Assembly: GCA_049325535.1 (NCBI GenBank)
Contig: JBMOKY010000001.1
Span: forward strand, 877,942 to 941,941
DNA length: 64,000 nt
Source: Patescibacteria group bacterium
GTDB lineage: Bacteria; Patescibacteriota; Patescibacteriia; UBA10025; JAHIVO01
Direction: 5' to 3'
This document shows, piece by piece, positions 765-60,456 of this stretch (within the stretch, counting starts at the first letter, position 1; each line of letters starts with the position of its first letter). Made by a program: the position numbers and the translations under genes. The notes under the pieces were generated by a model. The model saw nothing but the letters and a program-made list of their open reading frames with translations. It had not been told where the DNA came from and searched no databases.

Positions 765-1202
765 TTACCGATGTTCAAATGATGAAATAATTTTTTGTTC
801 AAGCGATTGCATCCGGCGTTGATCGGCGGGACGATGATGGTCGTACCCAATCAGATGAAGGAATCCATGGGCGAGCAGCCAAACCAGCTCTCGTCGGATG
901 GATACCCCCTGTATGGCCGCCTGACGACGGGCGTAGGGGTAGGCAATAATGATTTCCCCGACATATCCCGGTTCGAGTGATACACCCCGACTATCCCGCT
1001 CAGCAAATGAAAGAACATCGGTCACCGACGGCCGATGGCGGTAGCGGGTGTTCAATTTTTTCATTTCCCGATTATCCACAAAAGCAACCGACACCACGGC
1101 GTGGTCATACCGAGGCAGGTGCTGCCCAATCACCCGAAACAACTTTTGAATAAACGATGTCTGTATGCGAAATGGACTTGCCTGAATGACCTGTACCTGC
1201 AT
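765..1202 (-). CDS. ybeY: Endoribonuclease YbeY (rRNA maturation factor, metal-dependent)
   Basis: 145-aa ORF with the HGFLHLIGYDH (H-x3-H-x5-H) zinc-binding signature of the YbeY/UPF0054 family. Its start overlaps the stop of the upstream gene at 1202. Confidence 0.85.
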   Translation of the reverse strand: MQVQVIQASPFRIQTSFIQKLFRVIGQHLPRYDHAVVSVAFVDNREMKKLNTRYRHRPSVTDVLSFAERDSRGVSLEPGYVGEIIIAYPYARRQAAIQGVSIRRELVWLLAHGFLHLIGYDHHRPADQRRMQSLEQKIISSFEHR

Positions 1203-2293
1203 TACAGCCGATTGCTATTAGTATTCGTATTGCCAGTGTTTGTGTTAGTCCTGTTTGTATTGCTATTTGAATTCGTATTGGTTACTGCGTTGACATTGGC
1301 ATTGGTGGCGGTATTCGTATTGGACGAGGGGGTGGTTGCCGTGAGACTCTGGTACATCATGCTAAATGTGGTCAAATAATTTGCATCGCTCAGAATATTT
1401 GCCTTATAGCTCACCACATACACGTATGCCCCGAGGGTAAAATATACTGAGGTTCCATCCAGACTCTTCACCCCTTGGAGGGTATGATTCCAATTACTTA
1501 CGTTTTGCACCGCGGAAATATTCACTCCAGGAGATTTTGACAAATACCAATCCCGTGCCGACAGCAAAGCGGGATTATCCTGCACGCTGATCGATATAAA
1601 TTCCCCACTCGTGGAAAAAAGTTCACCGCGGGTATTCTGGGGATCTGCCGAAACGATCCATGACCGCGGATACAGTATGGTATACCCATTGGCCGTACTC
1701 GTATGGGTCTGAATGCCAGCATTGAGCGCAATTTTTTGTACCGGGGCATTGGGATCATATCCACTCACCACTTCCTGCCCATCCGCAAATCCATCCCCAT
1801 CGGTATCCGCTACGGACAAGCTGGTACCGTACAGCGCCTCCTCAACATTAGTCAAACCATCACTGTCAGAATCCTCACTACTGGTGAGAGTGACGGCATT
1901 CGTATTGGTCGAGGTATTGACATTGAGAAATACGCTGTTGGTACTCGCATTCACATTCAGGGTGGCGTTGGTATTTGTCTGATTTATATTTGTACTCGCA
2001 TTCACATTCAGGGTGGCGTTGGTATTTGTGACGGCGTTGATATTTGAATTTACCGGCTGATCATTGGTCACTACAGTATTGGTAGGGGCTGGTTTGTTTA
2101 ATTGTTTATAGACGACAAATCCACCACCACCGAGCACAGCCACTACTAAAATGAGTATCAATACGAACAAAAGCGGACTTTTCTTGCCGCCGCCGCTTTT
2201 GTCATCCACGTAGAATTTTTCCGGCATCGTATAGATACGCGCGGAACGGACCACGGGGGTTGGTGAAGATACTGGTACATCTGTTTTTACCAT
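1202..2293 (-). CDS. Hypothetical membrane-anchored Asn/Thr-rich surface protein with a thrombospondin-type-3-like Ca-binding repeat (DTDGDGFADGQE)
   Basis: 363-aa ORF with an N-terminal TM helix (LLFVLILILVVAVLGGGGFVVY), Asn/Thr-rich low-complexity segments bearing many N-x-T/S sequons, and one DxDxDG acidic Ca-binding loop. No recognisable enzyme motifs. Confidence 0.6.
   Translation of the reverse strand: MVKTDVPVSSPTPVVRSARIYTMPEKFYVDDKSGGGKKSPLLFVLILILVVAVLGGGGFVVYKQLNKPAPTNTVVTNDQPVNSNINAVTNTNATLNVNASTNINQTNTNATLNVNASTNSVFLNVNTSTNTNAVTLTSSEDSDSDGLTNVEEALYGTSLSVADTDGDGFADGQEVVSGYDPNAPVQKIALNAGIQTHTSTANGYTILYPRSWIVSADPQNTRGELFSTSGEFISISVQDNPALLSARDWYLSKSPGVNISAVQNVSNWNHTLQGVKSLDGTSVYFTLGAYVYVVSYKANILSDANYLTTFSMMYQSLTATTPSSNTNTATNANVNAVTNTNSNSNTNRTNTNTGNTNTNSNRL
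1941..2030. repeat. Tandem in-frame 51-nt duplication inside the 1202..2293 gene (peptide TNATLNVNASTN repeated)
   Basis: The 38-nt string gtactcgcattcacattcagggtggcgttggtatttgt occurs at 1941-1978 and again at 1992-2029, a 51-nt period. In translation it is NATLNVNASTN...NATLNVNASTN. Confidence 0.8.
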
Positions 2294-2306: not shown

Positions 2307-2960
2307 TTAACTCTTATTCAATTCCTCGATGGCGGCATTGAGGTCGCGCAATAAACCGTCGCCATTTGGATTATAGCCGTATTTTACCTCAGTACCGTCA
2401 TTATTGCCATCGCCATCAGTATCGGGGTTGCGCGGATTCGTCCCATATATTTCTACCTCATCAAAATCCGGCAATCCATCTCGATCGGTATCCGCCTGTT
2501 GCGAATCAGTGCCAATCCGCTCTTCCTCATCGTCGCTGATACCATCACCATCGGTATCGATTATCGAGACGGTCACTACCGGAATATCAATACCACTGCC
2601 ACTATCAGCCGTAGTCGCCGACTGTCCTGGTTGGACGACCTGGTTCTCATTTGCTGATGGCGCGGGTGTAGCCAACGGATTCACGATACCAAAGGGTCCC
2701 AGTGCTAAGACGACAGCAACGATGGCCACAACCACCAGGGGTAACGTCACCAGCATCATCCGCCGGCGTCCGCTCCAGGTATGAACTGCGGTTGGCTTTG
2801 GTACGGCTGGACTTACCCGCGAACGGCTGGCGGGTACGGTACGTACCGGCCGCCGTTTTTGCCGCGCTGTCGGTTGTGCCGGAGCAGCACCAGGCGCATT
2901 GCTCGAATCAGATTCTGCAAATATATCCTCTACTTGGTTTGATGCGCCTGGTTTTGGCAT
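2307..2960 (-). CDS. Hypothetical membrane protein with three thrombospondin-type-3-like Ca-binding repeats
   Basis: 217-aa ORF with an Arg/Pro-rich N-terminus, one TM helix (MLVTLPLVVVAIVAVVLALG), then DTDGDGISDDEE, DTDRDGLPDFDE and DTDGDGNNDGTE, a DxDxDGxxDxxE pattern. It is paralogous in repeat type to the 1202..2293 gene. Confidence 0.6.
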   Translation of the reverse strand: MPKPGASNQVEDIFAESDSSNAPGAAPAQPTARQKRRPVRTVPASRSRVSPAVPKPTAVHTWSGRRRMMLVTLPLVVVAIVAVVLALGPFGIVNPLATPAPSANENQVVQPGQSATTADSGSGIDIPVVTVSIIDTDGDGISDDEEERIGTDSQQADTDRDGLPDFDEVEIYGTNPRNPDTDGDGNNDGTEVKYGYNPNGDGLLRDLNAAIEELNKS

Positions 2961-2978: not shown

Positions 2979-4487
2979 CTAGATCTGTGGATTAGTAGGC
3001 TGGGTTGTCGCATTGGTACTGACGCAGTTCGTAGTGCTGGTGGATACGATGATCCCCAATTGCGAGCTCGGGGTAGCATTACCATCAGCGTCATAAGCCA
3101 TAGCGTAAATACTCCGCGGATCGGTATTGGTGGTGGTAGTACAATTTCCATTGGTCGTCGTCGATGTCGCCGCGTGCGCCACAGGTATGAATGTAAACCA
3201 AGGGCGCTCTGATTCCTGAGCAATCATCTGGTAGGGATCATAGGCAAAAGCGATAGCGCCTGCCAAAACCGGCACGGCAATATTGACGCTGGTACCAGAA
3301 GTAGTTACCTGACCGATGGGCCCACCGCCATTACTACTATACACCCGGACCTCGGTAACTGATATGTCATCCTGGGCCGATACGATGGCACTGAAGGTGG
3401 TTGAAGCGGAAAATGTAGTACCTGCCGCAGGACTGGTGATGGCCACGCTAAATGGGGCGGTCGTCGTGCGATTGACGATGACGGGCCGCACTGCCGTAGC
3501 CGACAGGGACACGCCATTGAACGCGCGTATGGTCAAGGTATGACTGCCATTTGACACGCCGGCCAGATCAAAAATCCAGTTATAAAACGTCGAACCGGCT
3601 GGTGAATCAAAATACTGCGTGTCCCGGGGAGCTGTCTCACTGTCCAGGAAAAATTCTACCCGGTCAATTCCTGATTCCGGATCTGTTGCTTCGGCAACCA
3701 CCTGGAACGTAGCGGTATTCAGTTCATCATTGTCATTATTGGGATACACGAAAGCGATGGAGGGTACAGTTGTATCACCGCAATCAGAATCGTTTGCAGA
3801 GGTGCAAGATGACGGGCAATAATCATCATTGTTCAGACACTGAGTGATGACGGTATTGGTACAAATAGCCGGGCATGTGGTCGTGGAGCAGGTGTCACTC
3901 GTACTGGGATCATTGTCATTGCATTCACTATTACTGGTACAGGTATTGGCAGCGCACGACCCGCTGCAGCAGCGTTCGCCTGCGGTCGTACAATCTGTAT
4001 CGACTGCGCAAGCACCGACACCGATGGCCAGCCGGACGACACCCGCAATGGTCACGGTGTTATTCAGCCGGTCGGTCAGCACGACATCGATCGGATATAA
4101 ACCATCAGCTTTATTACCAGCGTTCCAGGTATTTGAAAATACACCGTCGCTGGCCGCGCCATCGCCATGGATACCATCATCATAGAGGGTGACCTGCCCT
4201 GCTGCCTGAGTACTGCCCGGATTCTGAATGGTTACCGTCACGCTGCCGATTCCCGACACATCATAGGCTTCGACGGAGATGCGCACCGTCTCATTTTGCA
4301 CGATCTGTGCTGGATTCAGCGTCACCCCACTTCCGGTCAGCACGGGATTTGGATTTGTGGATACCTCAATGCTCGGCGTGGTTTGACCGTGCAACACTTC
4401 GGGATTGGCCAGCACAAACGCTGCGCCACCCAGCACCACCACCGAAAGGACCAAAATTAGTAATCTAAATTTGTACATATGATTCAT
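2979..4487 (-). CDS. Secreted Cys-rich surface protein with Ig-like (Big-type) domains
   Basis: 502-aa ORF with an N-terminal signal peptide (MNHMYKFRLLILVLSVVVLGGAAFVLA) and a central block of 21 Cys (CAVDTDCTTAGERCCSGSCAANTCTSNSECND...). Flanking segments have beta-rich Ig-like composition. Confidence 0.6.
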   Translation of the reverse strand: MNHMYKFRLLILVLSVVVLGGAAFVLANPEVLHGQTTPSIEVSTNPNPVLTGSGVTLNPAQIVQNETVRISVEAYDVSGIGSVTVTIQNPGSTQAAGQVTLYDDGIHGDGAASDGVFSNTWNAGNKADGLYPIDVVLTDRLNNTVTIAGVVRLAIGVGACAVDTDCTTAGERCCSGSCAANTCTSNSECNDNDPSTSDTCSTTTCPAICTNTVITQCLNNDDYCPSSCTSANDSDCGDTTVPSIAFVYPNNDNDELNTATFQVVAEATDPESGIDRVEFFLDSETAPRDTQYFDSPAGSTFYNWIFDLAGVSNGSHTLTIRAFNGVSLSATAVRPVIVNRTTTAPFSVAITSPAAGTTFSASTTFSAIVSAQDDISVTEVRVYSSNGGGPIGQVTTSGTSVNIAVPVLAGAIAFAYDPYQMIAQESERPWFTFIPVAHAATSTTTNGNCTTTTNTDPRSIYAMAYDADGNATPSSQLGIIVSTSTTNCVSTNATTQPTNPQI

Positions 4488-4552: not shown

Positions 4553-7500
4553 TTATACCCCGCCACTGCAAGTACAATTGATCCGCGCTTCGCAGGCTGC
4601 TGCCGCACCATCATGGGTCGAGCAGTCATACGGCCGACAGCGGGCAGGCAGCGGAGTTGATTGCCAGACGCACTGATTAGCGGTACAAGTCGTCGAATTG
4701 GTGTACGATGAACAGTTGCCCGGACCATTATAGAAACATACCGGGCAGGTCGATGGATTACTGATAGTTACAGTCAGCGTCTGTGATGTCGTACCGGATG
4801 CATTGGTTGCGGAAATGACGATAGAAAACGTTCCTGTTCCGGTCGGCGTGCCTGACAGCACATTATTGGTCCGCGTCATCCAGGCAGGCATGCCCGTGGC
4901 ATTATACGAAGTCGGTGAATTTGTGGCCGTTATTGTATAGGAAAACGCCGTACCCACTGTGCCCGTGCGCGACAATGTACTGGTGATCACCGGCACCGCC
5001 CCGGGTGCACCACCCCCGCCGCACGCGCCCGTAGAGCCGACGATATTTTCAAATTGGCTGACATACCCGTCATTGCTCTCCGCCTCGATATCGACATAAT
5101 AGCTCCGCTCCGGTCCGCTGGACGGAGATGTCCATGAACCCTGATATGACACTGCTCCGGTGGCAGTCAGCGGCACCCGATCGATTTCCACCTCATCGGG
5201 ATACTGAATCACCGCTTCCACCCGAGCAATGCCGGTGGCACTAACGACGTCGGCCAGAATACAAAATGCCGTACCGGGTAGACCCGTCTCCGGATCGACC
5301 ACGCCATTGCTGATCGACGGTCCTCCGGGACCCCGGACATTGACCCGGATCTCGATACTGGGGCTGCGGTTTCCCACCGCATCGAGGGCATCCACCTGGA
5401 TACGGTGCCATCCATCAGATAATAGATTGGTATCTAATTGCCACTCCCAATATTCCGGAGGTGACGGCTCGCCTACCCAATCAATGCCGCGCTGCAAATA
5501 ATCCACATAGAAATTTACCCTGCTCACGGCGTTATTATCAACTGCGTCAACTCGGATAGTAAGTAATCCATCAACCGAGGTACCCGTAGCCGGCGTCGGG
5601 GGCACAAACGTGACGGTTGGCGGGGTGATGTCATTTTCCAGATTATCGACATTCACGGTCACCACCGATGACGCGGTATTGTTTCCCCAATCATCATACG
5701 CGTACGCCTGCAGCAGATGGTCGCCATTCGGGTAAATCTTGGTATTCCAGTCAAAACTGTACTCATCTGGATTGCCGGTCGGGCCGGCTCCACCGCGATA
5801 CTGCGAATCAATATATACATCCACGCGGGCGATCCCGACATTGTCCGTAGCGCTGATGATAATGGGGGTAGCATCGGCCACTGACGGCGGGCTGGCAGGC
5901 GGAGCGATGATGCTTACAGCCGGATCCACCAAATCGGGATTGCTGACATTAATACGTGCCGTCGCAGCGGCCAACCGAGCGCCATCATCGGCAACGGCGC
6001 GGATGCACACTGTTTCATTTGGTGCGGCTGTCGAATCCCAATTAAACGTATGTGACGCCTGGTTTTGCACGCCGGGAAATGCCATACTGTCATGACCGTA
6101 GTTCGGACTCCCCCCGCCTGTTGAGCAACTCGAGTTCAAAATATCATAATAGATATTAGCGATGTCCACATTATCCGATGCATCAATCTGAATGGATACC
6201 GCGCCGCTAACCGTGGCATTATTCTGCGGAACGATGATCCTGACAAAAGGTGCGGTGGTATCTGCTCCACCGGCGTTATTGATATCGAGCGTATAGGACA
6301 CCTCGGTGCGGTTACCGACGGTATCATAGGCCCTGACGGAAAACGTATGCTGGCCGTCCGGATACGCACCTGTACCGAGACTCCAGCTCCATCCGTCACT
6401 CCCATCGCTGTCGGTCGCCGTGCGGATGCCGTCCATATAGTACTCCACCCGGTCCACCCCACTCGGCACGTCGACCACATCGACGGTCATAGCGCGGGTA
6501 CCGGATATGAGATTGACGCCGGCGACGAGGCTATCGACGGAATTGATGATCGGACCCTGCCGATCAGTGGCTGTACCGGTGATACCGTATTCATAATTCA
6601 GACAGTTTGACGAGGCATTGGGGATGGCGGCATAGGGATCCCCGGCATAATTCACCCAGCTACCCGGACCGAGGTATTCCAGATTGGTAAATAAACTGGC
6701 AGCATCACCCGACGGCGTCACTAAATATTGGTATGAACGTGAACCAGCATAGCAAATATACCGCTTGTTCGTATCATCCCAGCACGTATTGGCATCATAG
6801 TCGCCACTGCAACTATTGAATTTATTTATCGGATCCGTAGGCATCGACCGGTTGAGAGCCGCCCCGAGTGTCTCCTGCCACGAGGGCCAGAGCGACGTGG
6901 ACACATTGGCGACGAAGGTGCCCCCGGCTAAGCGCGGGTATTCCTTCTGAGCTCCTTTGTAATCTATGAGCGATCCGGCGATGTCACTCAGATCAGCCAG
7001 CCGTTTGATGTCCCGCTGGATACGTCCCTTATTTTCACCGGAAATATTGGTATTAAATGACCAGTTCTTCAGCAGGCGATTGTATATCTCTATCGTCTCA
7101 CCTGATGCCTCTTCATTGTATGACATCAGATAAATATTGGCGTAGAGCACTCCCCCGACTAGATTCGTAGCGGCTACATACACCGTGCGGCCGGCGCGGA
7201 CTGCGGGATATCCATCCACCGTCAGTGACTGCGGTTCCGGCGCTGCCGGGCCGAACTGCCGGCGGTACCAGCTAAAGGGTGAAAGTCGGTTTTCATTTTC
7301 CATCACCCGGATGCCAATAGCATCATCGGTCCCGTCGCGCAGGAAGAAAAATTCCCGGATCAGCTCGTCCTCGCCCGGCACTGACGGCGCGCCGTCCTTG
7401 ATGACGATATCAGCTACGGACTTCAGCGCCGGCAATCCATCTTCACGACAGTACCACGTGGAAAAATTGGTGACGGCATCTACATAGGGGTGCGGATCAA

Positions 7501-10500
7501 TGCTCGGATCGGGCCATGGTGCCGTACAGAGAGTACCCAAGACTGGGACACTCTTCGTAAAAGTGCCCAGATCCCCAAACGTGGTACTCGTCCCATCCGC
7601 GGTAATATTGAAATACCCGGTTCCGTCATGGTTATCTGAAGTCAAGAAACAGTCCAATAAATCATCCGCTGGCGAAGGGCAGCCAGGGGTCGGTACTGGC
7701 GTGGTATGAGTCGGAGTAAAAACCTCCGCCGGATCTGTTTCCGTCCAGGTAATCTGTATCGGGCTCGTTCCGCCATTGAGAATATTGTCAAATTGATCAA
7801 GTGGGTAAGCAAAAAGATACAGGTTCGCGCCGGGCAGACCGAAATCACCGGGGAAGCAGCCAGCAAATGAGCAGATAAAAGTAGGCTTCAGTGGCGGATA
7901 CTCATTGATTCCCGGACGATAATCGATGAAATTAACCTCAATATCATCTATCCGGCATACGTCAGCGGCCGGAGCAATAGTCCAGGCGTGCGATGCCCAT
8001 CCGGGCGCCGCGGTCATGGCCACGCCATTATCGCTCTGAATAAGTTCCGTGCGCAACCGCACCTCATAGCTATGGCCATTGGCCAGCATCTCGGTCGAAT
8101 ACACGGTAATGCTGCTCACCTGCTTCCGCACCCGTGCCGGGACAGTCACGTTTGCTGTCGTATCGACTAAAAATACCGATTCATCCGCTCCCGGAGCTGT
8201 GACATCACTGCCGATGACAAAACTGCTGCCAAGCATCTGCTCGGAAAAATTCACGGTAAAGGCGGCATTGCGGCACTGGAGCGGTGATGTAGCGGGCAAC
8301 CACCCGGAGATAGCAGGACGGGCAGTACAGCAGGTGTCGGTACCGCATCCGGTACCGCCGGTGCACTGCGCATCGGCAGTGCAGCCGCAGTACATACCGC
8401 GGGTCGTGCCACTACAGGCACGGATATTCGTGGAACACGTCAATCCAGTACTGGATACCTGCCCCGGATAGCAGCAAGTACGGCAATCCTCCTCGCCTGC
8501 CGGCGGATAGCCGGCACCCAAGGGGACATTCGGATCACGATGGCCAGCCGGATCGATGCAACGATAGTCGCCGCCACTGCTGAGCGGGCCGACGGCGCAG
8601 GTGCCATTATTTGTGGCGTTGGCCGGCAGTTGGCATAGGGTGCCGACCGCTCCCGTACTGCAGTTACCGGCAGCCACGCAGATATTGCCCTGGCAGCATC
8701 CGGTAGAGCACTGGCTGTTGCGCGAGCAGCTGATACTAAATGTCTGGGAATTGGACGGACAATTATTGACCTGAACGCTCACCCCGCCGGTGACCGCACC
8801 ATCAGGTACCTGACTGCGGCTGATGCTCGTATTGGTCCAGGCTTGCGACCGGTCAGTCACCACCTCATCCCAGGTATCATCTCGCCCAGCATGGTAATAC
8901 ACCCGCGTGGTGGCTGGATTGAGCGTAGCCGGAGAAAAATTCTGCCCAGTGATGAGGACCGTGGTCCCTTCGCGCCCGGATGCCGGATCAAGCGGAGGGC
9001 AGATGCCCGGCGCCACGCCGCTCGGCGGCGGTACGCCTCCAGAACAGTTGCCGCTGGCACAGTCGGCGTTATCCTCACAGGCTTGATTGGCATTGGCACC
9101 GCCGACGCAGATGCCCGAACACATATTTGATACGTCGAAATAATACGTGTTGATATCCGTCTGATTGGCGCCGTAGGTAGAATTATCCGAGGTAGTAAAC
9201 CGTGTACACACCCCACCACCAGTACAGCTAGCGCTGTCCGTACAGATTGTACCGTCATTGGTCCCCCCGAGGCACCTTCCGTCTGGGCGGTGCACGTCTA
9301 TCAAATACCGGTTTGGCGCGGGATTGCCCGGTTCGCTCACCGTAATCGAATGATCACTCCACGCATTCACACACTCATACACGCCGGCATTACCACCGAA
9401 GTAGACCGTTCCTAAGGTATTGCCAAAATAGCACCCTTCAATGGTGACAAACGAACCACCGATGCCAGTCTGGGGTGAAATCATCTGGCCGTCTTCATTG
9501 TAATCAGCGATGACGGGAACGCAGCGGTCAGCATAGATGTCACACCGGCTGCCCGTACACTCATTCACCCCGTCCTGATCCGGATCAGCACACCGCGTCG
9601 GATTAAACGCGCATGAAGCAGGATCTACTTTCAATCTGCCACGGCCCGACTCACCTTCTGCTGACGCATTGATATACGTCGTACCCAGCGCATTACCCGT
9701 GGCAGTTTCATTTGGTGTCGTGCTGCCCGTGACTGATGCGATGATGGCACTGTCCGACGTCCACGACCACGTATAATCACTGGAGTCCAGCAGCGCGCAA
9801 TTTGGACCAATTGCGAGCGCGGAATACGCTTCGGTGTCACCAATATTGTAAATCACCGCATTGCCCGGCATGACCATCACGTCCTCCACCGGACAGGGTC
9901 CGGTATCCGCCTTGGTCTTCACCATCCAGACATAATCAGCATTCATACGCGCACCCGCCGCACTTTCTACCTGGCGACGGATAGTCACCCGATAGTACGT
10001 ATCCGGCTCGAGATCAATCGGCACGCCCGCAGCCACCCGCCGGGTAACAAACCAGTCCACCGGCGCGCCAGTCCACATATTATGTGGTTCGGCAACCGGG
10101 GCGGCACAGGTCGGATCAGATCCACAGCTATCGAGAAGAATATTCAGGGTACTGATGGTGGCGGGATTCATCAACATATTAAAGCGCGCACCAAACGCGG
10201 CATTGACACAGACGTCAGTGGCGCCTTTATACGGATTTGGTGAAGCCATGCTGATTTGACAAACGCCACCCAAGCCGCACTGGTCATCGTTATTACATAA
10301 ACTACCGGGAGTAGGACCCCCGACGCAGGTCGCGGCGCAACTGGGATTTTCCACTACGCGGGGAATATCACCGCACGGCACGGAAAATCCTTTTTCATTG
10401 CTGCCGACACCACCGGCGTCTTGCACATTGACGGTATAGCTGCCATTGGCGAGATTCGGCACACGCGCCGTGACTAATCCCTCGGTCCACGGTGGCAAAA

Positions 10501-12745
10501 CAGTCCCTAACGTTGGCGGATCATTGAAATACACCTGTCCGGCCGCCGTCCCAAAGGCTTCGCCAGTCAGGTTCACTGTGGCATTCTGAACGCCGCAATT
10601 CGGCACTGCTTCGCACAGGGTCGGACCGGGCGTTTCTGTGGTATAGATAAATTTAATAATATTGCTCGGCCATGCCCCGCCCGTACCATGTACCTGGATG
10701 CCTACCACGGAATTCGGCACGGCTGTGGGACATTCATACCAATGATGGATGGAAGTATCACAAGCGGTGATGCCGATGGATCCGAGATTATCAGGAACTT
10801 TGATCAGCACCTCATCATCCTCCCAGGTGGTGGTACAATTCGGATAATCAGCGCTCACCCGGGCATAGGAACTGAGATTGATGAAATCCACGGTGCCACC
10901 GGCAGTAAACCCGTTGTTCCCACCCGGCCGTTTTAATAGCGTCACGGCCTGCCCAATACCCCCATGCGCTTGTCCGCTCCGGCCTGACGCTTTACTGATC
11001 TGAGGACTCGATACATCGAATATTTGGTTGTTACTCACATCCTCTGGGTTTGGTCCGATGTCCACTCGGACATTGCCATCGGCAGCGCCGGCTGATGGTG
11101 TGGCACTGGCAAATGCTGCGGGACCCGCCGGAATCCGAGTAGTAATTTCGTCACCAGCGGGACTCCAGCTGACGAGACAGTTGAGATTCGGATTGCCGGT
11201 GCCATCCACGCAGCGCGAATCATGCATCACCTCGCTGTTAAATATGATGTCGCCGGTGATGGATAGATTGCTGCCGGAAATAGTCACTTCCGGTTCATCA
11301 TACCGGCGGCTGACTGGTGAGATGCTGGTAATTTCCGGAGTGCACTGGGTATTGGTCGTATCCGTATCCGCGAAGAAATTCCACGGCACCACCTCGCCGC
11401 CGTTCGGTTGATTTGCGATTGTCATGAAATCATCACCCGGGCTACCATCTTCGTTTGTATTGTAGTCACCGTCCAGATGGTTCAGGCAGACATCCATCAA
11501 ACCATTGGTCGGGTCGTTGTTGCCGGGCGTACCGGCCGTCAGCGTCATGGAATATTCATTACCGGCCGTCATGGTCACCGCCGGCCGCGTGGAAAAAGCA
11601 TCCCACGTGCTAGGAACACCAAACGGGGTTTTCAGGGCAGCCGCCGCACCCGCGGTCAGATCCGTGTAGGTAACGGTACTCGTGTTCATCGACGCTTTGC
11701 GCATCTTCTGGGAAAATGTCACGGCAATCGGCGTATTCAGACAGATATCAGTCGCATTATCCTGGGGGTATATGCCCGTTACCGTCGGGGGTTCATTCAG
11801 CGTCGACGTGCCAGTGGTGAAAAACCACACATGGCCGGCAAACGGCCGTGCGGCTGCAGGCGGCGTGGGCAATTCAGTAATCGCGTCAGTGCAGTTTGGT
11901 CCCGGAGCCGTGCCGCACAGATAGGCCATGTAGGTCGTGTTGGGCAGATGTTCCTGATTCGGCAGAAATTCCAGTACATCACCGCTGGCCTGCCACGTAC
12001 CCGGCACCCAATCGCCCTGGCAAACCCCAGCGCAGATTCCAGAGGCACACTCGGCATCGTTCCCACAGCCCGTTCCGGCTGGCGCGCCTCCGTCCACATA
12101 GAGGAAAGCCGCACCATTGACGTGGGCCGGGTCCACCGTACCGCTAAATTCCGCCTGGACGATGCTGCACATATAAACATTTATCTCGCCATCAGCCGGA
12201 TCGGTATTGGTCACACGGAATGAATTGCCACCGGACACGTCGCATCCCGGCCAGGCATTTTGGTACTGCCAGGTGCCGTCACCGCTGCCATTATCGATAC
12301 ACAGATAACAGCCATTGGCATCGCCAATCGTACAGCTGGATGCACTGGGGTTGGTCAATTCCAGCGCCCGATCAATAATAAACGTAACGATAGCCCAGGC
12401 AAACATGACAATCAACAGCCCGACCACCGCCCGGGTAATAATCTTTTTTGCTTTATCTACTTTGTCCGTATTGCCCGCCGCAGTCATCCAGATAAATCCG
12501 CCGTACATGATGAAAATGACGGCGATCAGCCCAAGAAACCCGAGCGCCCACTGGACGACGCGGATCACGGTGGACATCAGATCAGCAGTACCTAATCCAA
12601 AGGTTGCCCCAAAATTCGGATCAACATCGACCTGCGCCCACGCTGCCGGCGCAATCCCCATCGCCATCGCGGCCATCGCAGCGAAACCAAACAGGACCCC
12701 CGCCAGGGCAAACCAGAAATTTTTGTTTTTCATTCGATTATTCAT
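4553..12745 (-). CDS. Giant (2730 aa) surface protein: N-terminal VirB2/TrbC-like T4SS-pilin domain fused to a ~2600-aa Cys-rich extracellular region
   Basis: 8.2-kb ORF. The N-terminus has a signal peptide (ending AWAQ), then two long hydrophobic helices separated by a short polar loop (VIRVVQWALGFLGLIAVIFIMYGGFIWMTAAGNTDKVDKAKKIITRAVVGLLIVMFAWAIVTFII), the VirB2/TrbC conjugative-pilin organisation. The remainder is Thr/Gly/Cys-rich with Ig-like segments and a C-terminal Cys-rich knot. Confidence 0.6.
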   Translation of the reverse strand: MNNRMKNKNFWFALAGVLFGFAAMAAMAMGIAPAAWAQVDVDPNFGATFGLGTADLMSTVIRVVQWALGFLGLIAVIFIMYGGFIWMTAAGNTDKVDKAKKIITRAVVGLLIVMFAWAIVTFIIDRALELTNPSASSCTIGDANGCYLCIDNGSGDGTWQYQNAWPGCDVSGGNSFRVTNTDPADGEINVYMCSIVQAEFSGTVDPAHVNGAAFLYVDGGAPAGTGCGNDAECASGICAGVCQGDWVPGTWQASGDVLEFLPNQEHLPNTTYMAYLCGTAPGPNCTDAITELPTPPAAARPFAGHVWFFTTGTSTLNEPPTVTGIYPQDNATDICLNTPIAVTFSQKMRKASMNTSTVTYTDLTAGAAAALKTPFGVPSTWDAFSTRPAVTMTAGNEYSMTLTAGTPGNNDPTNGLMDVCLNHLDGDYNTNEDGSPGDDFMTIANQPNGGEVVPWNFFADTDTTNTQCTPEITSISPVSRRYDEPEVTISGSNLSITGDIIFNSEVMHDSRCVDGTGNPNLNCLVSWSPAGDEITTRIPAGPAAFASATPSAGAADGNVRVDIGPNPEDVSNNQIFDVSSPQISKASGRSGQAHGGIGQAVTLLKRPGGNNGFTAGGTVDFINLSSYARVSADYPNCTTTWEDDEVLIKVPDNLGSIGITACDTSIHHWYECPTAVPNSVVGIQVHGTGGAWPSNIIKFIYTTETPGPTLCEAVPNCGVQNATVNLTGEAFGTAAGQVYFNDPPTLGTVLPPWTEGLVTARVPNLANGSYTVNVQDAGGVGSNEKGFSVPCGDIPRVVENPSCAATCVGGPTPGSLCNNDDQCGLGGVCQISMASPNPYKGATDVCVNAAFGARFNMLMNPATISTLNILLDSCGSDPTCAAPVAEPHNMWTGAPVDWFVTRRVAAGVPIDLEPDTYYRVTIRRQVESAAGARMNADYVWMVKTKADTGPCPVEDVMVMPGNAVIYNIGDTEAYSALAIGPNCALLDSSDYTWSWTSDSAIIASVTGSTTPNETATGNALGTTYINASAEGESGRGRLKVDPASCAFNPTRCADPDQDGVNECTGSRCDIYADRCVPVIADYNEDGQMISPQTGIGGSFVTIEGCYFGNTLGTVYFGGNAGVYECVNAWSDHSITVSEPGNPAPNRYLIDVHRPDGRCLGGTNDGTICTDSASCTGGGVCTRFTTSDNSTYGANQTDINTYYFDVSNMCSGICVGGANANQACEDNADCASGNCSGGVPPPSGVAPGICPPLDPASGREGTTVLITGQNFSPATLNPATTRVYYHAGRDDTWDEVVTDRSQAWTNTSISRSQVPDGAVTGGVSVQVNNCPSNSQTFSISCSRNSQCSTGCCQGNICVAAGNCSTGAVGTLCQLPANATNNGTCAVGPLSSGGDYRCIDPAGHRDPNVPLGAGYPPAGEEDCRTCCYPGQVSSTGLTCSTNIRACSGTTRGMYCGCTADAQCTGGTGCGTDTCCTARPAISGWLPATSPLQCRNAAFTVNFSEQMLGSSFVIGSDVTAPGADESVFLVDTTANVTVPARVRKQVSSITVYSTEMLANGHSYEVRLRTELIQSDNGVAMTAAPGWASHAWTIAPAADVCRIDDIEVNFIDYRPGINEYPPLKPTFICSFAGCFPGDFGLPGANLYLFAYPLDQFDNILNGGTSPIQITWTETDPAEVFTPTHTTPVPTPGCPSPADDLLDCFLTSDNHDGTGYFNITADGTSTTFGDLGTFTKSVPVLGTLCTAPWPDPSIDPHPYVDAVTNFSTWYCREDGLPALKSVADIVIKDGAPSVPGEDELIREFFFLRDGTDDAIGIRVMENENRLSPFSWYRRQFGPAAPEPQSLTVDGYPAVRAGRTVYVAATNLVGGVLYANIYLMSYNEEASGETIEIYNRLLKNWSFNTNISGENKGRIQRDIKRLADLSDIAGSLIDYKGAQKEYPRLAGGTFVANVSTSLWPSWQETLGAALNRSMPTDPINKFNSCSGDYDANTCWDDTNKRYICYAGSRSYQYLVTPSGDAASLFTNLEYLGPGSWVNYAGDPYAAIPNASSNCLNYEYGITGTATDRQGPIINSVDSLVAGVNLISGTRAMTVDVVDVPSGVDRVEYYMDGIRTATDSDGSDGWSWSLGTGAYPDGQHTFSVRAYDTVGNRTEVSYTLDINNAGGADTTAPFVRIIVPQNNATVSGAVSIQIDASDNVDIANIYYDILNSSCSTGGGSPNYGHDSMAFPGVQNQASHTFNWDSTAAPNETVCIRAVADDGARLAAATARINVSNPDLVDPAVSIIAPPASPPSVADATPIIISATDNVGIARVDVYIDSQYRGGAGPTGNPDEYSFDWNTKIYPNGDHLLQAYAYDDWGNNTASSVVTVNVDNLENDITPPTVTFVPPTPATGTSVDGLLTIRVDAVDNNAVSRVNFYVDYLQRGIDWVGEPSPPEYWEWQLDTNLLSDGWHRIQVDALDAVGNRSPSIEIRVNVRGPGGPSISNGVVDPETGLPGTAFCILADVVSATGIARVEAVIQYPDEVEIDRVPLTATGAVSYQGSWTSPSSGPERSYYVDIEAESNDGYVSQFENIVGSTGACGGGGAPGAVPVITSTLSRTGTVGTAFSYTITATNSPTSYNATGMPAWMTRTNNVLSGTPTGTGTFSIVISATNASGTTSQTLTVTISNPSTCPVCFYNGPGNCSSYTNSTTCTANQCVWQSTPLPARCRPYDCSTHDGAAAACEARINCTCSGGV

Positions 12746-15506: not shown

Positions 15507-16154
15507 TTATGCGGGGGTTAATTGATAGGTCGGCGGGGTAAAAAGGGTAAACGTTTCAAACGGCCAGACGCGAAGCCACGCGCGTCCCACGATTTCCCGA
15601 CGCGGAAGCGGTCCGAAACTGCGCGAGTCGAGGCTCACCGGGCGGTTGTCACCCATCACAAAATACTGATCAGCGCCGAGTTCGACGCGCTGATTTCCGC
15701 TCGTCTGGATATAATCAGCCAGATACGATTCAGGTAAAGCAGCTCCTTCTGGATTCTGTTCATTGATAATCGTCACTCTGCCATCACCGATTTCCACGAC
15801 CTCATGGGGGAGGCCGATGATCCGCTTGATCAAAAATTCAGCTGTATTCTTTGGGTCCCGAATCACCACCACGTCACCTCGCTGCGGATCATTGAATCGA
15901 TAGGTGATTTCGTCGATAATCAAATACTGATTGTCTTCAAAATTCGGTTCCATCGAAGCGCCACGGACATAGAACGGCTGAAACAAAAAATAGCGGATGG
16001 GTATGATGATCACCACTGCGATCAGGACTATCTTAATGAGTTCTATCAAAAAACCCCGCGGCGATTTCGCGTACGCCGGCACGTCGTCTTTGGCTTTCGG
16101 CTTGGCGAGTGACGCCTCTTTTTGGATCGTCTCTCGGTCAGGCGTAATTTTCAT
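15507..16154 (-). CDS. lepB: Signal peptidase I (S26 family)
   Basis: 215-aa ORF with an N-terminal TM helix, the catalytic Ser box (RGASMEPNF) and the Lys box (GDNRPVSLDSR). Confidence 0.9.
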   Translation of the reverse strand: MKITPDRETIQKEASLAKPKAKDDVPAYAKSPRGFLIELIKIVLIAVVIIIPIRYFLFQPFYVRGASMEPNFEDNQYLIIDEITYRFNDPQRGDVVVIRDPKNTAEFLIKRIIGLPHEVVEIGDGRVTIINEQNPEGAALPESYLADYIQTSGNQRVELGADQYFVMGDNRPVSLDSRSFGPLPRREIVGRAWLRVWPFETFTLFTPPTYQLTPA

Positions 16155-59560: not shown

Positions 59561-60313
59561 CTAGAGCAGGCTGTCGATCATGGTCTGGAAGCTGCTGAAG
59601 GGAACCGCTCCAGAAACCAGCTGGCCATTGACAAACGTCGCCGGCGTCCCCTCCACGCCATAGGCTACCCCCGAATCAAATGAATCCTGAACTTTTTGCG
59701 CATACGTGCCCGTATCGAGACAGGTGTCAAATGTTGTTTGATTAAGCCCCAATTCACCGGCAGCCGATTTGAAACTATCCACGCTCAAAGAACCGGCGTC
59801 ATTCAGGGCAAAAAGTTTATCATGCATTTCCCAAAATTTACCCTGCGCCGCGGCACACTCTGATGCCTCAGCTGCTTTTTGAGCATTCTGGTGGAATGAC
59901 AATGGAAAATGACGGAAAATCACTCGCACCTGATCTGGATATGCGTCGAGGATCTGTTCGATTGTCGGCGTATGCCGAGAACAATACGGACACTCAAAAT
60001 CAGAATACTCCACGATGGTAATAGGCGCATCAGCCGCACCACGGATATGATCCTCGTCAGTGATGACAATATCCACCGGGGCCGGAGCGGCAGTATTGGT
60101 TCCCGCTTGGTCAGTATCATCTACGCCGGCAACGATGCCCACATTTGAATTTGTAGTTTTCGACGGAGCATCATCTCCACGGAGCGCCGCGAGCGTTACG
60201 CCAAATCCGATAGTGGACAGCACCGCGACACCAGCCAGGATGCCCATGGCAAAAGCAACCTTGGGAGAGGTCCGATACACGACACGTTCCGACATTCCTT
60301 GTTGATCGTTCAT
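59561..60313 (-). CDS. DsbA-family thiol:disulfide oxidoreductase (membrane-anchored, CPYC active site)
   Basis: 250-aa ORF with an N-terminal TM helix, a thioredoxin fold carrying FECPYCSRH, and the DsbA helical insertion (GKFWEMHDKLF). Confidence 0.85.
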   Translation of the reverse strand: MNDQQGMSERVVYRTSPKVAFAMGILAGVAVLSTIGFGVTLAALRGDDAPSKTTNSNVGIVAGVDDTDQAGTNTAAPAPVDIVITDEDHIRGAADAPITIVEYSDFECPYCSRHTPTIEQILDAYPDQVRVIFRHFPLSFHQNAQKAAEASECAAAQGKFWEMHDKLFALNDAGSLSVDSFKSAAGELGLNQTTFDTCLDTGTYAQKVQDSFDSGVAYGVEGTPATFVNGQLVSGAVPFSSFQTMIDSLL

Positions 60314-60456
60314 AATATTTCAATAATAGTAAGTGGAGATTAGATTGGTTAATTCTATCAGCCAGCCCCCGGCTGTCAAGCGTAGACTGCGTATCCCATT
60401 AACAAAATAACAATCATTCCTGATTGCATGATGCGGAGCGCCATATCAGTCGCCGA

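What the first reader, a model, noticed from the sequence alone, without database searches (positions are those of the whole stretch)
4553..12745. 2730-aa protein with a VirB2/TrbC-like T4SS pilin N-terminus
After a signal peptide, residues ~60-135 show the two-helix hairpin that defines conjugative/T4SS pilins: VIRVVQWALGFLGLIAVIFIMYGGFIWMTAAGNTDKVDKAKKIITRAVVGLLIVMFAWAIVTFII. This is covalently continuous with ~2600 aa of Cys-rich extracellular sequence.
Pilin-domain fusion to a giant ectodomain would put an enormous cargo on a T4SS-like filament, or use the pilin fold simply as a membrane anchor. No other T4SS genes (VirB4, VirB6, VirD4) are in the window. The partner machinery is therefore elsewhere, or the domain has been repurposed.
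Basis: partly seen in the sequence, partly recalled or inferred. Interest (0 to 1): 0.6.

Follow-up and report, generated by a model that had tools for sequence, protein, structure and literature searches.

The report
Giant surface protein on pilin anchor
An ultra-small (Patescibacteria/CPR) bacterium encodes a 2,730-residue surface protein whose first 125 residues are a complete copy of the small secretion-system pilin that the same kind of cell also makes on its own; this undescribed but widely conserved design may tie a huge adhesin-like fibre to the cell's pilin system.

Summary
ORF 4553-12745 (-) encodes 2,730 aa. Residues 56-123 match Pfam PF18895 T4SS_pilin above the curated cut-off and are 50-69% identical to free-standing ~117-aa Patescibacteria pilins, which end exactly where the giant's homology ends. 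The rest is a Cys-rich ectodomain with no further hydrophobic segment: Ig-like arrays plus a conserved ~385-aa module of unknown fold.

It is not an artefact. Forty-eight database homologues and 32 GTDB species representatives (Kerfeld-, Komeili-, Falkow-, Uhr-, Buchananbacteria) share the architecture at one syntenic chromosomal locus: S21-YqeY-giant-TSP3 protein-~360-aa protein-YbeY.

The hairpin is the best conserved part of the protein (83% identity among orthologues, against 62% for the ectodomain). Ordinary anchors of the neighbouring genes reach only 30-54%. This argues for more than a passive anchor.

No VirB4, VirB6 or VirD4 lies in the window, just beyond its right end, or within ±10 kb of four related giant loci. 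Whether this genome has a T4SS could not be tested. A published survey lists VirB4 in 8 of 11 visible Kerfeldbacteria assemblies.

Best reading: a "modular" T4SS-type pilin that couples a giant adhesin-like fibre to the free-pilin system. A pure anchor role is the main rival. I rate it a new variant of a known kind, of moderate to high interest.

The parts
4553..12745 (-). Complete gene for the 2,730-aa pilin-anchored giant surface protein (stop codon 4553-4555)
   Evidence: ORF list and translation. Start and stop checked. A 99% identical copy, P0001, exists in another assembly, and an exact copy lies on Logan contig SRR32167788_82880.
12632..12745 (-). Sec-type signal peptide, residues 1-38 (basic n-region MNNRMKNK, hydrophobic core, AWA|Q site)
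   Evidence: Sequence and hydropathy. Free pilins have ASA|Q at the aligned position. This stretch is only 29% identical to the orthologue P0002, as expected for a signal peptide. Cleavage itself is inferred.
12569..12631 (-). Mature pilin N-terminal segment, residues 39-59 (VDVDPNFGATFGLGTADLMST), acidic and predicted to be extracellular
   Evidence: The motif G.TFGLGTADL is shared with free pilins. It is 76% identical to the orthologue.
12482..12568 (-). Pilin helix 1, residues 60-88 (first transmembrane helix)
   Evidence: Covered by the PF18895 match at residues 56-123. AlphaFold2 predicts a helix at 53-88 with pLDDT about 86-90. It is 90% identical to the orthologue.
12431..12481 (-). Inter-helix loop, residues 89-105 (AAGNTDKVDKAKKIITR), net charge +3, predicted to be cytoplasmic
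   Evidence: Charge count. The consensus TAxGNExKV..AKK is the same in 48 giants and 120 free pilins. In solved conjugative pili the equivalent positively charged loop faces the lumen (PMC11722321).
12374..12430 (-). Pilin helix 2, residues 106-124 (second transmembrane helix). Free pilins end 8-10 residues after it.
   Evidence: Alignment A2. AlphaFold2 helix at 93-131. It is 74% identical to the orthologue.
4556..12373 (-). Ectodomain, residues 125-2730 (about 273 kDa, pI 4.25, 96 Cys, no hydrophobic segment, no LPXTG motif)
   Evidence: Pfam finds Big_5 x4, Big_7 x4, Big_3_3 and Big_13.
11531..11794 (-). Best-scoring Big_5 Ig-like domain (residues 318-405), one of four
   Evidence: Pfam PF13205, 97.4 bits for the protein, 4 stretches.
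6491..7648 (-). Conserved central module, residues 1700-2085. It is family-defining, its function is unknown, and it is the second most conserved region.
   Evidence: It is about 70% identical at residues 1800-1900 among 16 orthologues. It is present in nearly all giants of the family. The AlphaFold2 model has pLDDT 82.5 and pTM 0.78. There is no PDB sequence hit and no significant Foldseek hit.
5708..6466 (-). Start of the C-terminal Ig-like array: the best-scoring Big_13 (residues 2094-2154), Big_3_3 (2127-2198) and Big_7 (2275-2346) matches
   Evidence: Pfam.
4556..4747 (-). C-terminal Cys-rich tail, residues 2667-2730 (12 Cys in 64 residues). It would be the membrane-distal tip if the protein is extended.
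   Evidence: Sequence. Its role as a tip is inferred from the N-terminal anchorage.
2979..4487 (-). Downstream 502-aa secreted Cys-rich Big_7 / choice-of-anchor-X protein, a syntenic partner in the closer relatives
   Evidence: Pfam and NCBIfam. N-terminal hydrophobic segment. An orthologue sits in the same position in L006, L007 and L010. It is detected in 10 of 32 species loci.
2307..2960 (-). Downstream 217-aa single-pass membrane protein with thrombospondin type-3 (Ca-binding) repeats, a conserved partner
   Evidence: Pfam TSP3_bac. TM segment at 65-99. It lies downstream of the giant in 30 of 32 species loci and in L006, L010, L011 and L012.
1202..2293 (-). Downstream 363-aa single-pass membrane protein (TSP3 repeat plus a C-terminal domain), a conserved partner
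   Evidence: Pfam. TM segment at 33-65. It is present in 29 of 32 species loci.
15507..16154 (-). Context only: signal peptidase I (LepB), the enzyme expected to cut the AWA|Q site. It is syntenic upstream of the giant in relatives.
   Evidence: Pfam Peptidase_S26, 151.9 bits. Synteny. A functional link is inferred.
59561..61137 (-). Context only: two DsbA-like thioredoxin-fold genes (59561-60313 and 60457-61137), consistent with disulfide formation in Cys-rich exported proteins
   Evidence: Pfam Thioredoxin_4 / DSBA. A functional link is inferred.

Best explanation
This is a real, vertically inherited gene of a Kerfeldbacteria-like member of the Patescibacteria class ABY1. It encodes a 'modular pilin'.

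The N-terminal 125 residues are a complete pre-pilin of the T4SS_pilin (VirB2-like) family: a Sec signal peptide, an acidic mature N-terminus, and a helix-loop-helix hairpin. Its C-terminus is predicted to lie outside the cell. Instead of stopping there, as the cell's free ~117-aa pilins do, it runs through a short linker into a 2,606-residue, disulfide-rich ectodomain. That ectodomain consists of Ig-like arrays, a conserved ~385-aa module and a Cys-knot tail.

Proposed mechanism:
1. Sec export and LepB cleavage at AWA|Q (inferred).
2. Insertion of the hairpin with the basic loop in the cytoplasm and both ends outside (inferred from charge and hydropathy).
3. Oxidative folding of the ectodomain into a long fibre that projects through the envelope and binds a host or surface ligand, probably together with the conserved TSP3 and ~360-aa membrane proteins encoded next to it (inferred).
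4. The hairpin stays pilin-like because it packs against the cell's free pilins. It would do so in the membrane pool, and possibly as a rare or terminal subunit of a T4SS-type filament. In solved conjugative pili the basic loop faces the lumen and the two termini lie next to each other. This would couple the giant adhesin-like fibre to the pilin system (hypothesis, supported only by conservation).
For: Pilin identity:
- PF18895 matches above its curated cut-off over the full model.
- Identity to free pilins is 50-69%, and their ends coincide with the end of homology.
- The consensus is the same in 48 giants and 120 free pilins.
- 5 of 44 family members also hit PF04956 TrbC/VirB2, best E = 1.1e-6.

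Real and conserved:
- 48 homologues of 1,504-3,974 aa all carry the module, starting at residue 9-71.
- 32 of 53 intact ORFs in GTDB species representatives carry it.
- 26 of the top-150 50%-identity cluster representatives are single N-terminal module proteins longer than 1,000 aa.
- The locus S21-YqeY-giant-TSP3-p363-YbeY is conserved.

More than an anchor:
- Residues 51-100 are the best conserved 50-residue block in the protein, at 83% identity among 16 orthologues.
- Against P0002, helix 1 is 90% identical, the loop 82% and helix 2 74%. The signal peptide is 29% and the ectodomain 62%.
- Plain TM or signal anchors of the three neighbouring genes are 30%, 54% and 48% identical.

Partners exist: free pilins P0085 and P0088 and a 523-aa pilin with a Cys-rich C-terminal domain lie on contigs from the same sample (SRR32167788). 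Where checked (L008), GC content and divergence from the reference genome match the window.

Topology: three hydrophobic segments only, a loop of net charge +3, and all 96 Cys outside. AlphaFold2 predicts a hairpin with pLDDT about 90.

Literature:
- VirB2-like pilins and an MPF-FATA-like T4SS are widespread in Patescibacteria (PMC12102498).
- 8 of 11 visible Kerfeldbacteria assemblies carry VirB4.
- In conjugative pili the basic loop faces the lumen (PMC11722321).
Against: - No T4SS gene lies in the 64-kb window or in the ~10 kb beyond its right end. None lies within ±10 kb of four related giant loci, nor among the called neighbours of the free-pilin loci examined. A VirB4 in this genome is unverified.
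- No member of PF18895 has, to my knowledge, been shown to form a filament in a monoderm or CPR cell.
- A 273-kDa C-terminal module cannot be carried by every subunit of a tight helical pilus, so only sparse or terminal incorporation is sterically plausible.
- The same hairpin also occurs as covalent tandem arrays of 2-17 modules. This shows the module can work as a purely membrane-embedded unit.
- Fold comparison is uninformative: Foldseek finds only generic helical hairpins and no T4SS pilin in the top 50.
- The profile of the family finds no solved pilin by sequence.
- Adhesin function is inferred from domain content only.
Confidence: 0.55

Rival explanations
1. Pure anchor. The pilin hairpin has been co-opted only as a stable two-helix membrane anchor and export signal for a giant surface protein. 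It has no interaction with free pilins and no link to any T4SS or filament.
For: No T4SS gene lies near any giant locus or near the free-pilin arrays examined. The hairpin also occurs in tandem poly-hairpin membrane proteins, 93 of the top 150 representatives, so it is a versatile membrane module. The gene sits among housekeeping and cell-division genes, not in a mobile or secretion locus.
Against: Ordinary anchors drift. The signal peptide of the same protein is 29% identical between orthologues, and the TM anchors of the neighbouring genes are 30-54% identical. The hairpin is 74-90% identical and is the most conserved block of the protein. Giants keep the same loop and extracellular N-terminal motifs (GLGTADL, TAxGNExKV..AKK) as free pilins, and an anchor would not need them.
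Confidence: 0.3
2. Giant pro-pilin or carrier. The protein is cleaved just after helix 2. This would release a normal mature pilin and a free 273-kDa secreted ectodomain, or the reverse, with the pilin part acting as an export carrier.
For: C-terminal trimming of pilins exists in the VirB2/TrbC family: TrhA loses 5 residues before cyclisation, and TrbC is cyclised by a similar step (PMC11722321). Homology to free pilins stops exactly at their C-terminus and is followed by a Gly/Ser-rich linker.
Against: No conserved cleavage motif is visible at the junction; the consensus after helix 2 is variable apart from a single T followed by a glycine-rich stretch. Known trimmings remove only a few residues (5 in TrhA), not 2,600. 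The cell already encodes several cheap free pilins. The signal peptide alone would be enough for secretion of the ectodomain.
Confidence: 0.08
3. Artefact or chance. Either the long ORF is a mis-assembly or frameshift fusion of a small pilin gene with a downstream surface-protein gene, or the hairpin only resembles pilins by hydrophobic composition.
For: Two-TM hairpins give low-level hits to many membrane families. Foldseek cannot tell this hairpin from other hairpins.
Against: The same continuous architecture appears in independent assemblies and in 32 species representatives. The PF18895 score is well above its cut-off, and identity to free pilins is 50-69% with E down to 1e-36. All competing family hits are below their thresholds.
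Confidence: 0.01

Closest known systems
Free-standing VirB2-like / T4SS_pilin (PF18895) pilins of Patescibacteria (Quinonero-Coronel et al. 2025, PMC12102498)
   Same: The pre-pilin layout is the same: signal peptide with an A-x-A|Q site, the GLGTADL motif, and two helices joined by the loop TAxGNExKV..AKK. Identity is 50-69%. The host phylum is the same, and such pilins occur in the same sample.
   Different: Those pilins are 106-149 aa and stop 8-10 residues after helix 2; this protein continues for 2,606 residues. The paper mentions fusions only for VirB3-VirB4 and finds none; it does not describe pilin fusions. The pilins most similar to this one lie in conserved arrays (NTP-transferase, solute-binding protein, pilins, DUF2079) or beside a cation ATPase, not beside virB4.
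Modular type IV pilins, e.g. PilB of Streptococcus sanguinis (PMC8179133)
   Same: The design principle is the same: a pilin module with a bulky functional (adhesive) module grafted onto its C-terminus. This is an analogy for how it may work.
   Different: The pilin superfamily is unrelated. Type IV pilins have a class III signal peptide and a single N-terminal helix and are assembled by PilB/PilC-type machines. No G-[FY]-[TS]-L-x-E prepilin motif is present here or anywhere in the window. The grafted part here is roughly an order of magnitude larger.
Conjugative T4SS pilins VirB2/TrbC/TraA/TrhA of diderm bacteria
   Same: They share a signal peptide plus a helix-loop-helix with a basic loop. 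Some relatives of this module cross-hit PF04956 TrbC/VirB2 (5 of 44, best E = 1.1e-6). C-terminal residues are dispensable or processed in that family.
   Different: The window protein itself does not reach PF04956. There is no sequence hit to any solved pilin and no specific fold hit. No adjacent VirB machinery is present. Those pilins are 7-8 kDa subunits of homopolymeric tubes.
Giant Ig-repeat surface adhesins of other bacteria (own knowledge: e.g. Ebh, SiiE, LapA, Bap-type proteins)
   Same: Size in the thousands of residues, arrays of bacterial Ig-like domains, and an acidic ectodomain with Ca-binding partners (TSP3).
   Different: Those are anchored by an LPXTG/sortase motif, a C-terminal TM segment, or a T1SS retention module. 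This protein has no LPXTG and no C-terminal hydrophobic segment. It is N-terminally anchored by a pilin hairpin.

Membership tests
Pfam PF18895 T4SS_pilin | Profile score at or above the curated gathering cut-off (26.6 bits) over most of the model | tested here: met
   41.7 bits in the whole protein and 46.2-46.4 bits in N-terminal fragments. The match covers residues 56-123 and model positions 4-71 of 71.
Pfam PF18895 T4SS_pilin | Pre-pilin layout: cleavable signal peptide, two hydrophobic helices and a short basic loop | tested here: met
   Hydropathy and charge analysis. AlphaFold2 helices at 53-88 and 93-131. Column-by-column agreement with 120 free pilins. Cleavage itself is not testable here.
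Pfam PF18895 T4SS_pilin | Small single-domain protein (about 100-150 aa) ending shortly after helix 2 | tested here: not met
   This protein has 2,730 aa, whereas free pilins end 8-10 residues after helix 2. It is therefore a member by domain, not by whole-protein architecture.
VirB2/TrbC conjugative pilins (PF04956) | Sequence match to the TrbC/VirB2 profile | tested here: inconclusive
   The window protein gives no PF04956 hit at E <= 0.05. Of 44 aligned family members, 5 do hit it (best E = 1.1e-6). The NCBIfam Mbov_0395 pilin-like ICE protein scores 29-35 bits, below its cut-off of 40.
VirB2/TrbC conjugative pilins (PF04956) | Fold match to solved T4SS pilins | tested here: inconclusive
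VirB2/TrbC conjugative pilins (PF04956) | Encoded with, and assembled by, a VirB4-containing T4SS | not testable with these tools
   The window and the ~10 kb beyond its right end lack it, as do the ±10 kb around four related giant loci and the called neighbours of the free-pilin loci. The literature table lists VirB4 as 'Yes' in 8 of 11 visible Kerfeldbacteria assemblies.
VirB2/TrbC conjugative pilins (PF04956) | Polymerises into an extracellular filament | not testable with these tools
   This needs cryo-EM/ET or biochemistry. I found no report of a PF18895 filament.
Type IV (class III signal peptide) modular pilins | Prepilin peptidase motif G|[FY][TS]L[IL]E and a single N-terminal hydrophobic helix | tested here: not met
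   A regex search of all six-frame ORFs in the window found no such motif. The N-terminus is a Sec signal peptide plus a hairpin. The resemblance is in design only.
Sortase-anchored (LPXTG) giant adhesins | C-terminal LPXTG motif, then a hydrophobic stretch and a basic tail | tested here: not met
   No [LIVN]PX[TSA]G motif occurs anywhere, and there is no hydrophobic segment after residue 130.
ABY1 pilin-anchored giant family (defined here) | N-terminal PF18895 module, Big_5-type Ig arrays, the conserved ~385-aa module, and the locus YqeY-giant-TSP3-p363-YbeY | tested here: met
   All four features are present in the window and in relatives.

The most novel reading that the evidence does not exclude
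Patescibacteria of class ABY1 build a T4SS-type (VirB2-like) filament or membrane pilin platform. The cell covalently arms it with a 270-kDa adhesin by making the adhesin itself a pilin subunit. This would be the first 'modular pilin' in the conjugative-pilin superfamily. It would mean the repurposed, relaxase-less T4SS of CPR bacteria is in part a host-attachment organelle whose tip or base subunit is this giant protein.
Probability: 0.25. Interest if true: 0.8.

Novelty: new variant of a known kind. Interest (0 to 1): 0.55.

Why it matters
Patescibacteria make up a large share of bacterial diversity, and the cultivated ones live attached to host cells. How most of them attach is unknown. Their T4SS lacks relaxases, has no assigned function, and is essential for epibiotic growth in the one species tested (PMC12102498).

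A class-wide core gene that fuses the T4SS-type pilin to a giant, rapidly diverging Ig-repeat ectodomain gives a concrete and testable link between the pilin/T4SS system and cell-surface adhesion. It also shows that the VirB2-like hairpin is used as a building block for modular proteins: giants, 200-640-aa fusions (Cys-rich, peptidoglycan-binding or Big_5 domains), and tandem poly-hairpins. I found no paper describing this.

It further defines a new conserved extracellular module (residues 1700-2085) with no solved relative.

Tried and rejected
1. VirB4 hunt. I looked at the neighbourhoods of five free-pilin genes (four distinct contexts), four giant loci and the window's right end. None contains a T4SS ATPase.

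2. Sequence profiles of the pilin family (A2) and of the central module (A1) against PDB sequences gave no meaningful hit.

4. I suspected that the long helix RDxKRxxDL...Y....G.YP in the central module is a type IV pilin/GspG-like alpha-1C helix plus head domain. Only one homologue gave a weak T2SSG hit (E = 0.019, below threshold), and no pilin appeared in the Foldseek list. I treat this as an unsupported lead.

5. The concerted-evolution test asked whether each giant's hairpin clusters with the free pilins of its own genome. In a neighbour-joining tree most giants group with other giants in several clades, with best giant-giant identity usually above best giant-free identity. There is therefore no evidence of gene conversion. 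Too few genomes had both partners for a covariation test.

The single-protein patterns found nothing. A six-sequence alignment, A3, worked.

7. A profile search with the central module returned only 7 proteins because of the word-index limit.

8. The promoter and terminator scans were not clearly above shuffled expectation (21 against 16.6 +/- 3.9; 19 against 13.8 +/- 3.6), so no operon boundaries are claimed.

9. The 'novel pilus system in CPR' preprint concerns Ig-fold donor-strand Pam pili, not this hairpin.
Full report
**Observation**

The minus-strand ORF 4553..12745 is real. It encodes 2,730 residues from an ATG that lies five codons after an in-frame stop, and it ends in TAA.

A hydropathy scan finds only three hydrophobic segments in the whole protein, at residues 9-36, 58-91 and 101-130. 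The first, preceded by MNNRMKNK and followed by AWA|Q, looks like a Sec signal peptide.

The loop between them (AAGNTDKVDKAKKIITR) carries five K/R and two D/E. The flanks outside the helices are acidic. By the positive-inside rule the loop is cytoplasmic and both ends of the hairpin are outside (inference).

All 96 cysteines lie after residue 125. There is no LPXTG motif and no C-terminal hydrophobic segment.

**Is the N-terminus a T4SS pilin?**

Pfam PF18895 (T4SS_pilin) matches residues 56-123 over positions 4-71 of its 71-position model. It scores 41.7 bits in the whole protein and 46.2-46.4 bits in N-terminal fragments, against a curated cut-off of 26.6. Every other family that appears (a GPCR family, cytochrome bd subunit II, FixQ and others) is below its own cut-off. 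NCBIfam gives a sub-threshold match to the Mbov_0395 pilin-like conjugal transfer protein of Mycoplasma ICEs.

A search of 5.8 billion proteins with residues 1-150 returned 225 hits. The best 120 are all free-standing proteins of 103-149 aa, mostly 116-122 aa, and all are annotated PF18895. They are 45-69% identical to the query, with E-values down to 1e-36.

The alignment shows that these small pilins have the same layout as the giant. They have a signal peptide ending in ASA|Q, the motif TFGLGTADL, helix 1, the loop TAxGNExKV..AKK and helix 2. They stop 8-10 residues after helix 2, exactly where the giant's similarity to them stops.

Five of 44 aligned members also hit the classical TrbC/VirB2 family PF04956 (best E = 1.1e-6). 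The window protein itself does not.

AlphaFold2 predicts the expected hairpin (helices 53-88 and 93-131, pLDDT about 90). Foldseek cannot tell it from other helical hairpins and shows no T4SS pilin in the top 50. The family profile finds no solved pilin by sequence.

Membership in PF18895 by domain is therefore established. Kinship with VirB2/TrbC rests on intermediate sequences and on the literature, not on a direct test.

**Organism and family**

The window is chromosomal. It carries YbeY, HisRS, S21, YqeY, LepB, Der, Pth, Mfd, DprA, TopA, ParAB, Lgt, SOD and a cysteine desulfurase, interleaved with surface-protein genes.

The closest full-length relative, P0002 (62% identity), is on a 1.1-Mb contig of a Candidatus Kerfeldbacteria MAG. 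Kerfeldbacteria are class ABY1 in the table of PMC12102498.

The full-length search gave 52 hits. Forty-eight of them (1,504-3,974 aa) carry the pilin module, always starting at residue 9-71.

A scan of one genome per GTDB species with the conserved central module found 57 loci in Kerfeld-, Komeili-, Falkow-, Uhr-, Buchanan- and Magasanikbacteria. Several MAGs among them carry obviously generic titles. Of 53 ORFs with an intact 5' end, 32 are giants of 1,638-3,882 aa with the N-terminal pilin module.

An exhaustive profile search of 1.84 billion cluster representatives found 67,992 proteins with the hairpin at E <= 1e-3. The top 150 break down as follows:
- 93 are tandem arrays of 2-17 hairpins.
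- 28 are free pilins.
- 26 have a single N-terminal hairpin and exceed 1,000 aa.
- 3 have a single hairpin and an intermediate length (201-1,000 aa).

The fusion is therefore a recurrent natural architecture and not an assembly artefact.

**Locus**

The giant sits at the same chromosomal place in every relative examined. The order is LepB-HisRS-HIT-S21-YqeY-giant (one or two tandem copies)-[Big_7 or He_PIG protein]-TSP3-repeat membrane protein-~360-aa membrane protein-YbeY-DAGK-FtsA(-FtsZ).

Among the 32 species loci, tblastn finds the TSP3 protein in 30 and the ~360-aa protein in 29. It finds S21 in 27, HisRS in 26, and YqeY and YbeY in 25 each; truncated flanks limit these counts.

In the window the three downstream genes are 2979-4487, 2307-2960 and 1202-2293. 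Each has one N-terminal hydrophobic segment. They are the best candidates for functional partners (inference from conserved adjacency).

**Conservation pattern**

Among 16 orthologues, the 50-residue block 51-100 (hairpin) is 83% identical to the window protein, the highest value in the protein. The next peak is residues 1801-1900, at 67-72%. Most of the ectodomain is 30-50% identical.

The comparison with P0002 breaks down as follows:

| Region | Identity to P0002 |
|---|---|
| Signal peptide | 29% |
| Mature N-terminus | 76% |
| Helix 1 | 90% |
| Loop | 82% |
| Helix 2 | 74% |
| Ectodomain | 62% |

The plain signal or TM anchors of the three neighbouring genes are only 30%, 54% and 48% identical between the same two genomes. 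Those values are below the identity of their own ectodomains.

The consensus of 48 giants and that of 120 free pilins are nearly superimposable, including the extracellular GLGTADL motif and the basic loop. A passive anchor would not be expected to be held this tightly. This is the main argument that the hairpin does something pilin-specific.

**Ectodomain**

Pfam recognises four Big_5, four Big_7, one Big_3_3 and one Big_13 Ig-like domains. Short Cys-rich knots lie between them, and a 64-residue tail carries 12 Cys.

Residues 1700-2085 form a conserved module present in nearly all family members. In several it lies at the extreme C-terminus. It also occurs directly behind a signal peptide in short secreted proteins.

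AlphaFold2 models it with confidence (pLDDT 82.5, pTM 0.78). It has no PDB sequence relative and no significant Foldseek match. Its function is unknown.

A helix motif in it resembles the alpha-1C helix of type IV pilins. The only support for that is one sub-threshold T2SSG hit in one homologue, so I do not claim it.

Two DsbA-like genes in the window fit a disulfide-rich exported proteome.

**T4SS context**

No VirB4, VirB6 or VirD4 is present in any of these places:
- the window;
- the ~10 kb beyond its right end;
- ±10 kb around four related giant loci.

The only secretion-type ATPase in the window is a PilT-family type IV pilus ATPase next to PilM.

The free pilins most similar to the giant's anchor are also not next to virB4. 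They lie either beside a cation ATPase gene or in a conserved array. The array runs NTP-transferase, solute-binding protein, a modular pilin, one to four short pilins, then DUF2079. The modular pilin is either about 520 aa with a Cys-rich C-terminal domain or carries a peptidoglycan-binding domain.

Both kinds of free-pilin locus occur on contigs from the same sequencing run as the giant (SRR32167788). The array contig L008 has a GC content of 0.52, against 0.53 for the window. Its divergence from the Kerfeldbacteria reference matches that of the window. The organism therefore very probably makes several free pilins (inference).

I could not test whether this genome has VirB4. In the published survey, 8 of the 11 Kerfeldbacteria assemblies visible in Table S1 are scored VirB4-positive. 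The paper reports VirB2-like pilins in 1,948 VirB4-containing Patescibacteria assemblies.

**How it most likely works**

Shown by the data:
- The protein is a full pre-pilin of the PF18895 family, extended at its C-terminus by a 273-kDa Cys-rich Ig-repeat region.
- The design and the locus are conserved across a bacterial class.
- The hairpin is under the strongest constraint in the protein.

Inferred:
- The protein is exported by Sec and cleaved by LepB.
- The topology is loop-in and C-terminus-out.
- The ectodomain folds oxidatively.
- It has a fibre-like adhesive role together with the TSP3 and ~360-aa partner proteins.

Hypothesis:
- The hairpin packs with the free pilins, in the membrane pool or as a rare or terminal subunit of a T4SS-type filament.
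- In solved conjugative pili the basic inter-helix loop faces the lumen, and the N- and C-termini lie next to each other (PMC11722321). If, as I recall from the pilus structures, those termini are on the outer face, a C-terminal module would point outwards.
- Sterically only sparse or terminal incorporation is plausible.

The closest functional analogy is the modular type IV pilins of Streptococcus sanguinis (PMC8179133). They belong to an unrelated pilin superfamily, and their defining prepilin motif is absent here.

**Rivals**

- Pure anchor role, about 0.3. It fits the lack of nearby T4SS genes and the existence of tandem poly-hairpin proteins. It does not explain the conservation pattern.
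- Giant pro-pilin that is cleaved after helix 2, about 0.08. Small C-terminal trimmings in TrhA and TrbC are a precedent. No conserved site is seen, and the cost would be extravagant.
- Artefact or chance, about 0.01. This is excluded.

**Novelty and verdict**

The pilin family and its abundance in Patescibacteria are known (PMC12102498). Public annotation calls the giants only 'Ig-like domain-containing protein'.

Four full-text searches found no description of pilin-anchored giant proteins. Three keyword combinations around Patescibacteria/CPR, VirB2 or pilin, giant or large surface proteins and Ig-like turned up nothing relevant. The two papers that mention PF18895 or T4SS_pilin do not describe such fusions.

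I classify this as a new variant of a known kind: a modular, giant member of the T4SS-type pilin family. Interest is moderate to high.

Its hedged interpretation is supported, but the choice between filament cargo and anchor remains open.

Noticed in passing
window 22247-23287 (-), with neighbours 21151-22182, 20279-21139, 19124-20272 and 16713-19175 (all -): The 346-aa ORF matches NCBIfam NF058581 'CPR Pam pilus system pilin subunit' (70.9 bits, cut-off 55) and weakly matches PamT. The next gene (343 aa) has a signal peptide and a C-terminal TM, like the membrane-anchored Pam chaperones. Dockerin, cohesin and CarboxypepD_reg surface proteins follow. The 2026 Pam-pilus preprint reports homologues mainly in Saccharimonadia and Microgenomatia, whereas this is an ABY1/Kerfeldbacteria-like genome.
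   Followed up: partly
window 23433-36701 (-): This is a second giant ORF of 4,422 aa with a different anchoring style. It has an N-terminal HTH_17/MerR-like DNA-binding domain (residues 45-94, 39 bits), a single TM segment (137-167), and then about 4,250 residues with no Pfam match. A membrane-tethered HTH on a giant ectodomain is odd and suggests signalling from outside to DNA.
   Followed up: no
proteins P0173-P0313 (e.g. P0174 of 820 aa, P0180 of 1,775 aa) from the representative search: The PF18895 hairpin very often occurs as covalent tandem arrays of 2-17 modules in one polypeptide, without intervening signal peptides. This applies to 93 of the 150 best cluster representatives. Such poly-hairpin proteins would be multi-pass membrane proteins rather than pilus subunits.
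   Followed up: partly
L005 5668-12429; L008 5608-12450; L009 5769-12465; L013 5783-12943: A conserved pilin array runs NTP-transferase, SBP_bac_1 solute-binding protein, a 'modular' pilin, 1-4 short pilins, then the DUF2079 membrane protein and glycosyltransferases. The modular pilin is either 516-523 aa with a Cys-rich C-terminal domain and no Pfam hit on record (hairpin seen by eye), or 271-327 aa with PG_binding_1. The array is found from Kerfeldbacteria to a 'Nomurabacteria' complete genome and is never next to virB4.
   Followed up: partly
L008 10001-10354 against L005 10001-10354: The 117-aa free pilin is 92% identical between two genomes (identical in the mature part as seen). Its flanking proteins are 46-84% identical, and the giant orthologues are 62% identical. 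This is extreme conservation for a small membrane protein.
   Followed up: partly
window 6491-7648 (-); proteins P0316-P0319; 21 of the 53 intact ORFs among loci L014-L070: The conserved central module of the giant (core AIGIRV..N...LSP..WY ... VDGYPAVR.GRTVYV ... WPSWQ.TLG ... DP.N) also exists directly behind a signal peptide in proteins of about 310-1,350 aa. It is thus an independent ABY1/Parcubacteria extracellular domain with no solved relative.
   Followed up: partly
L010 1-20074 (CP181398.1); L012 8078-19378: Some genomes carry two pilin-anchored proteins in tandem at the locus. One has two giants of 3,314 and 3,357 aa with identical pilin modules. Another has a 637-aa pilin-Big_5 protein in front of a 3,125-aa VWA-containing giant. 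This suggests local duplication and diversification of the ectodomain.
   Followed up: no
record titles of L017, L018, L025, L033, L034 and others: Many GTDB representative MAGs that carry this clearly Patescibacteria locus are titled 'uncultured Gammaproteobacteria bacterium' (TPA_asm binchicken/SRP assemblies). These look like placeholder or wrong organism names in the records.
   Followed up: no
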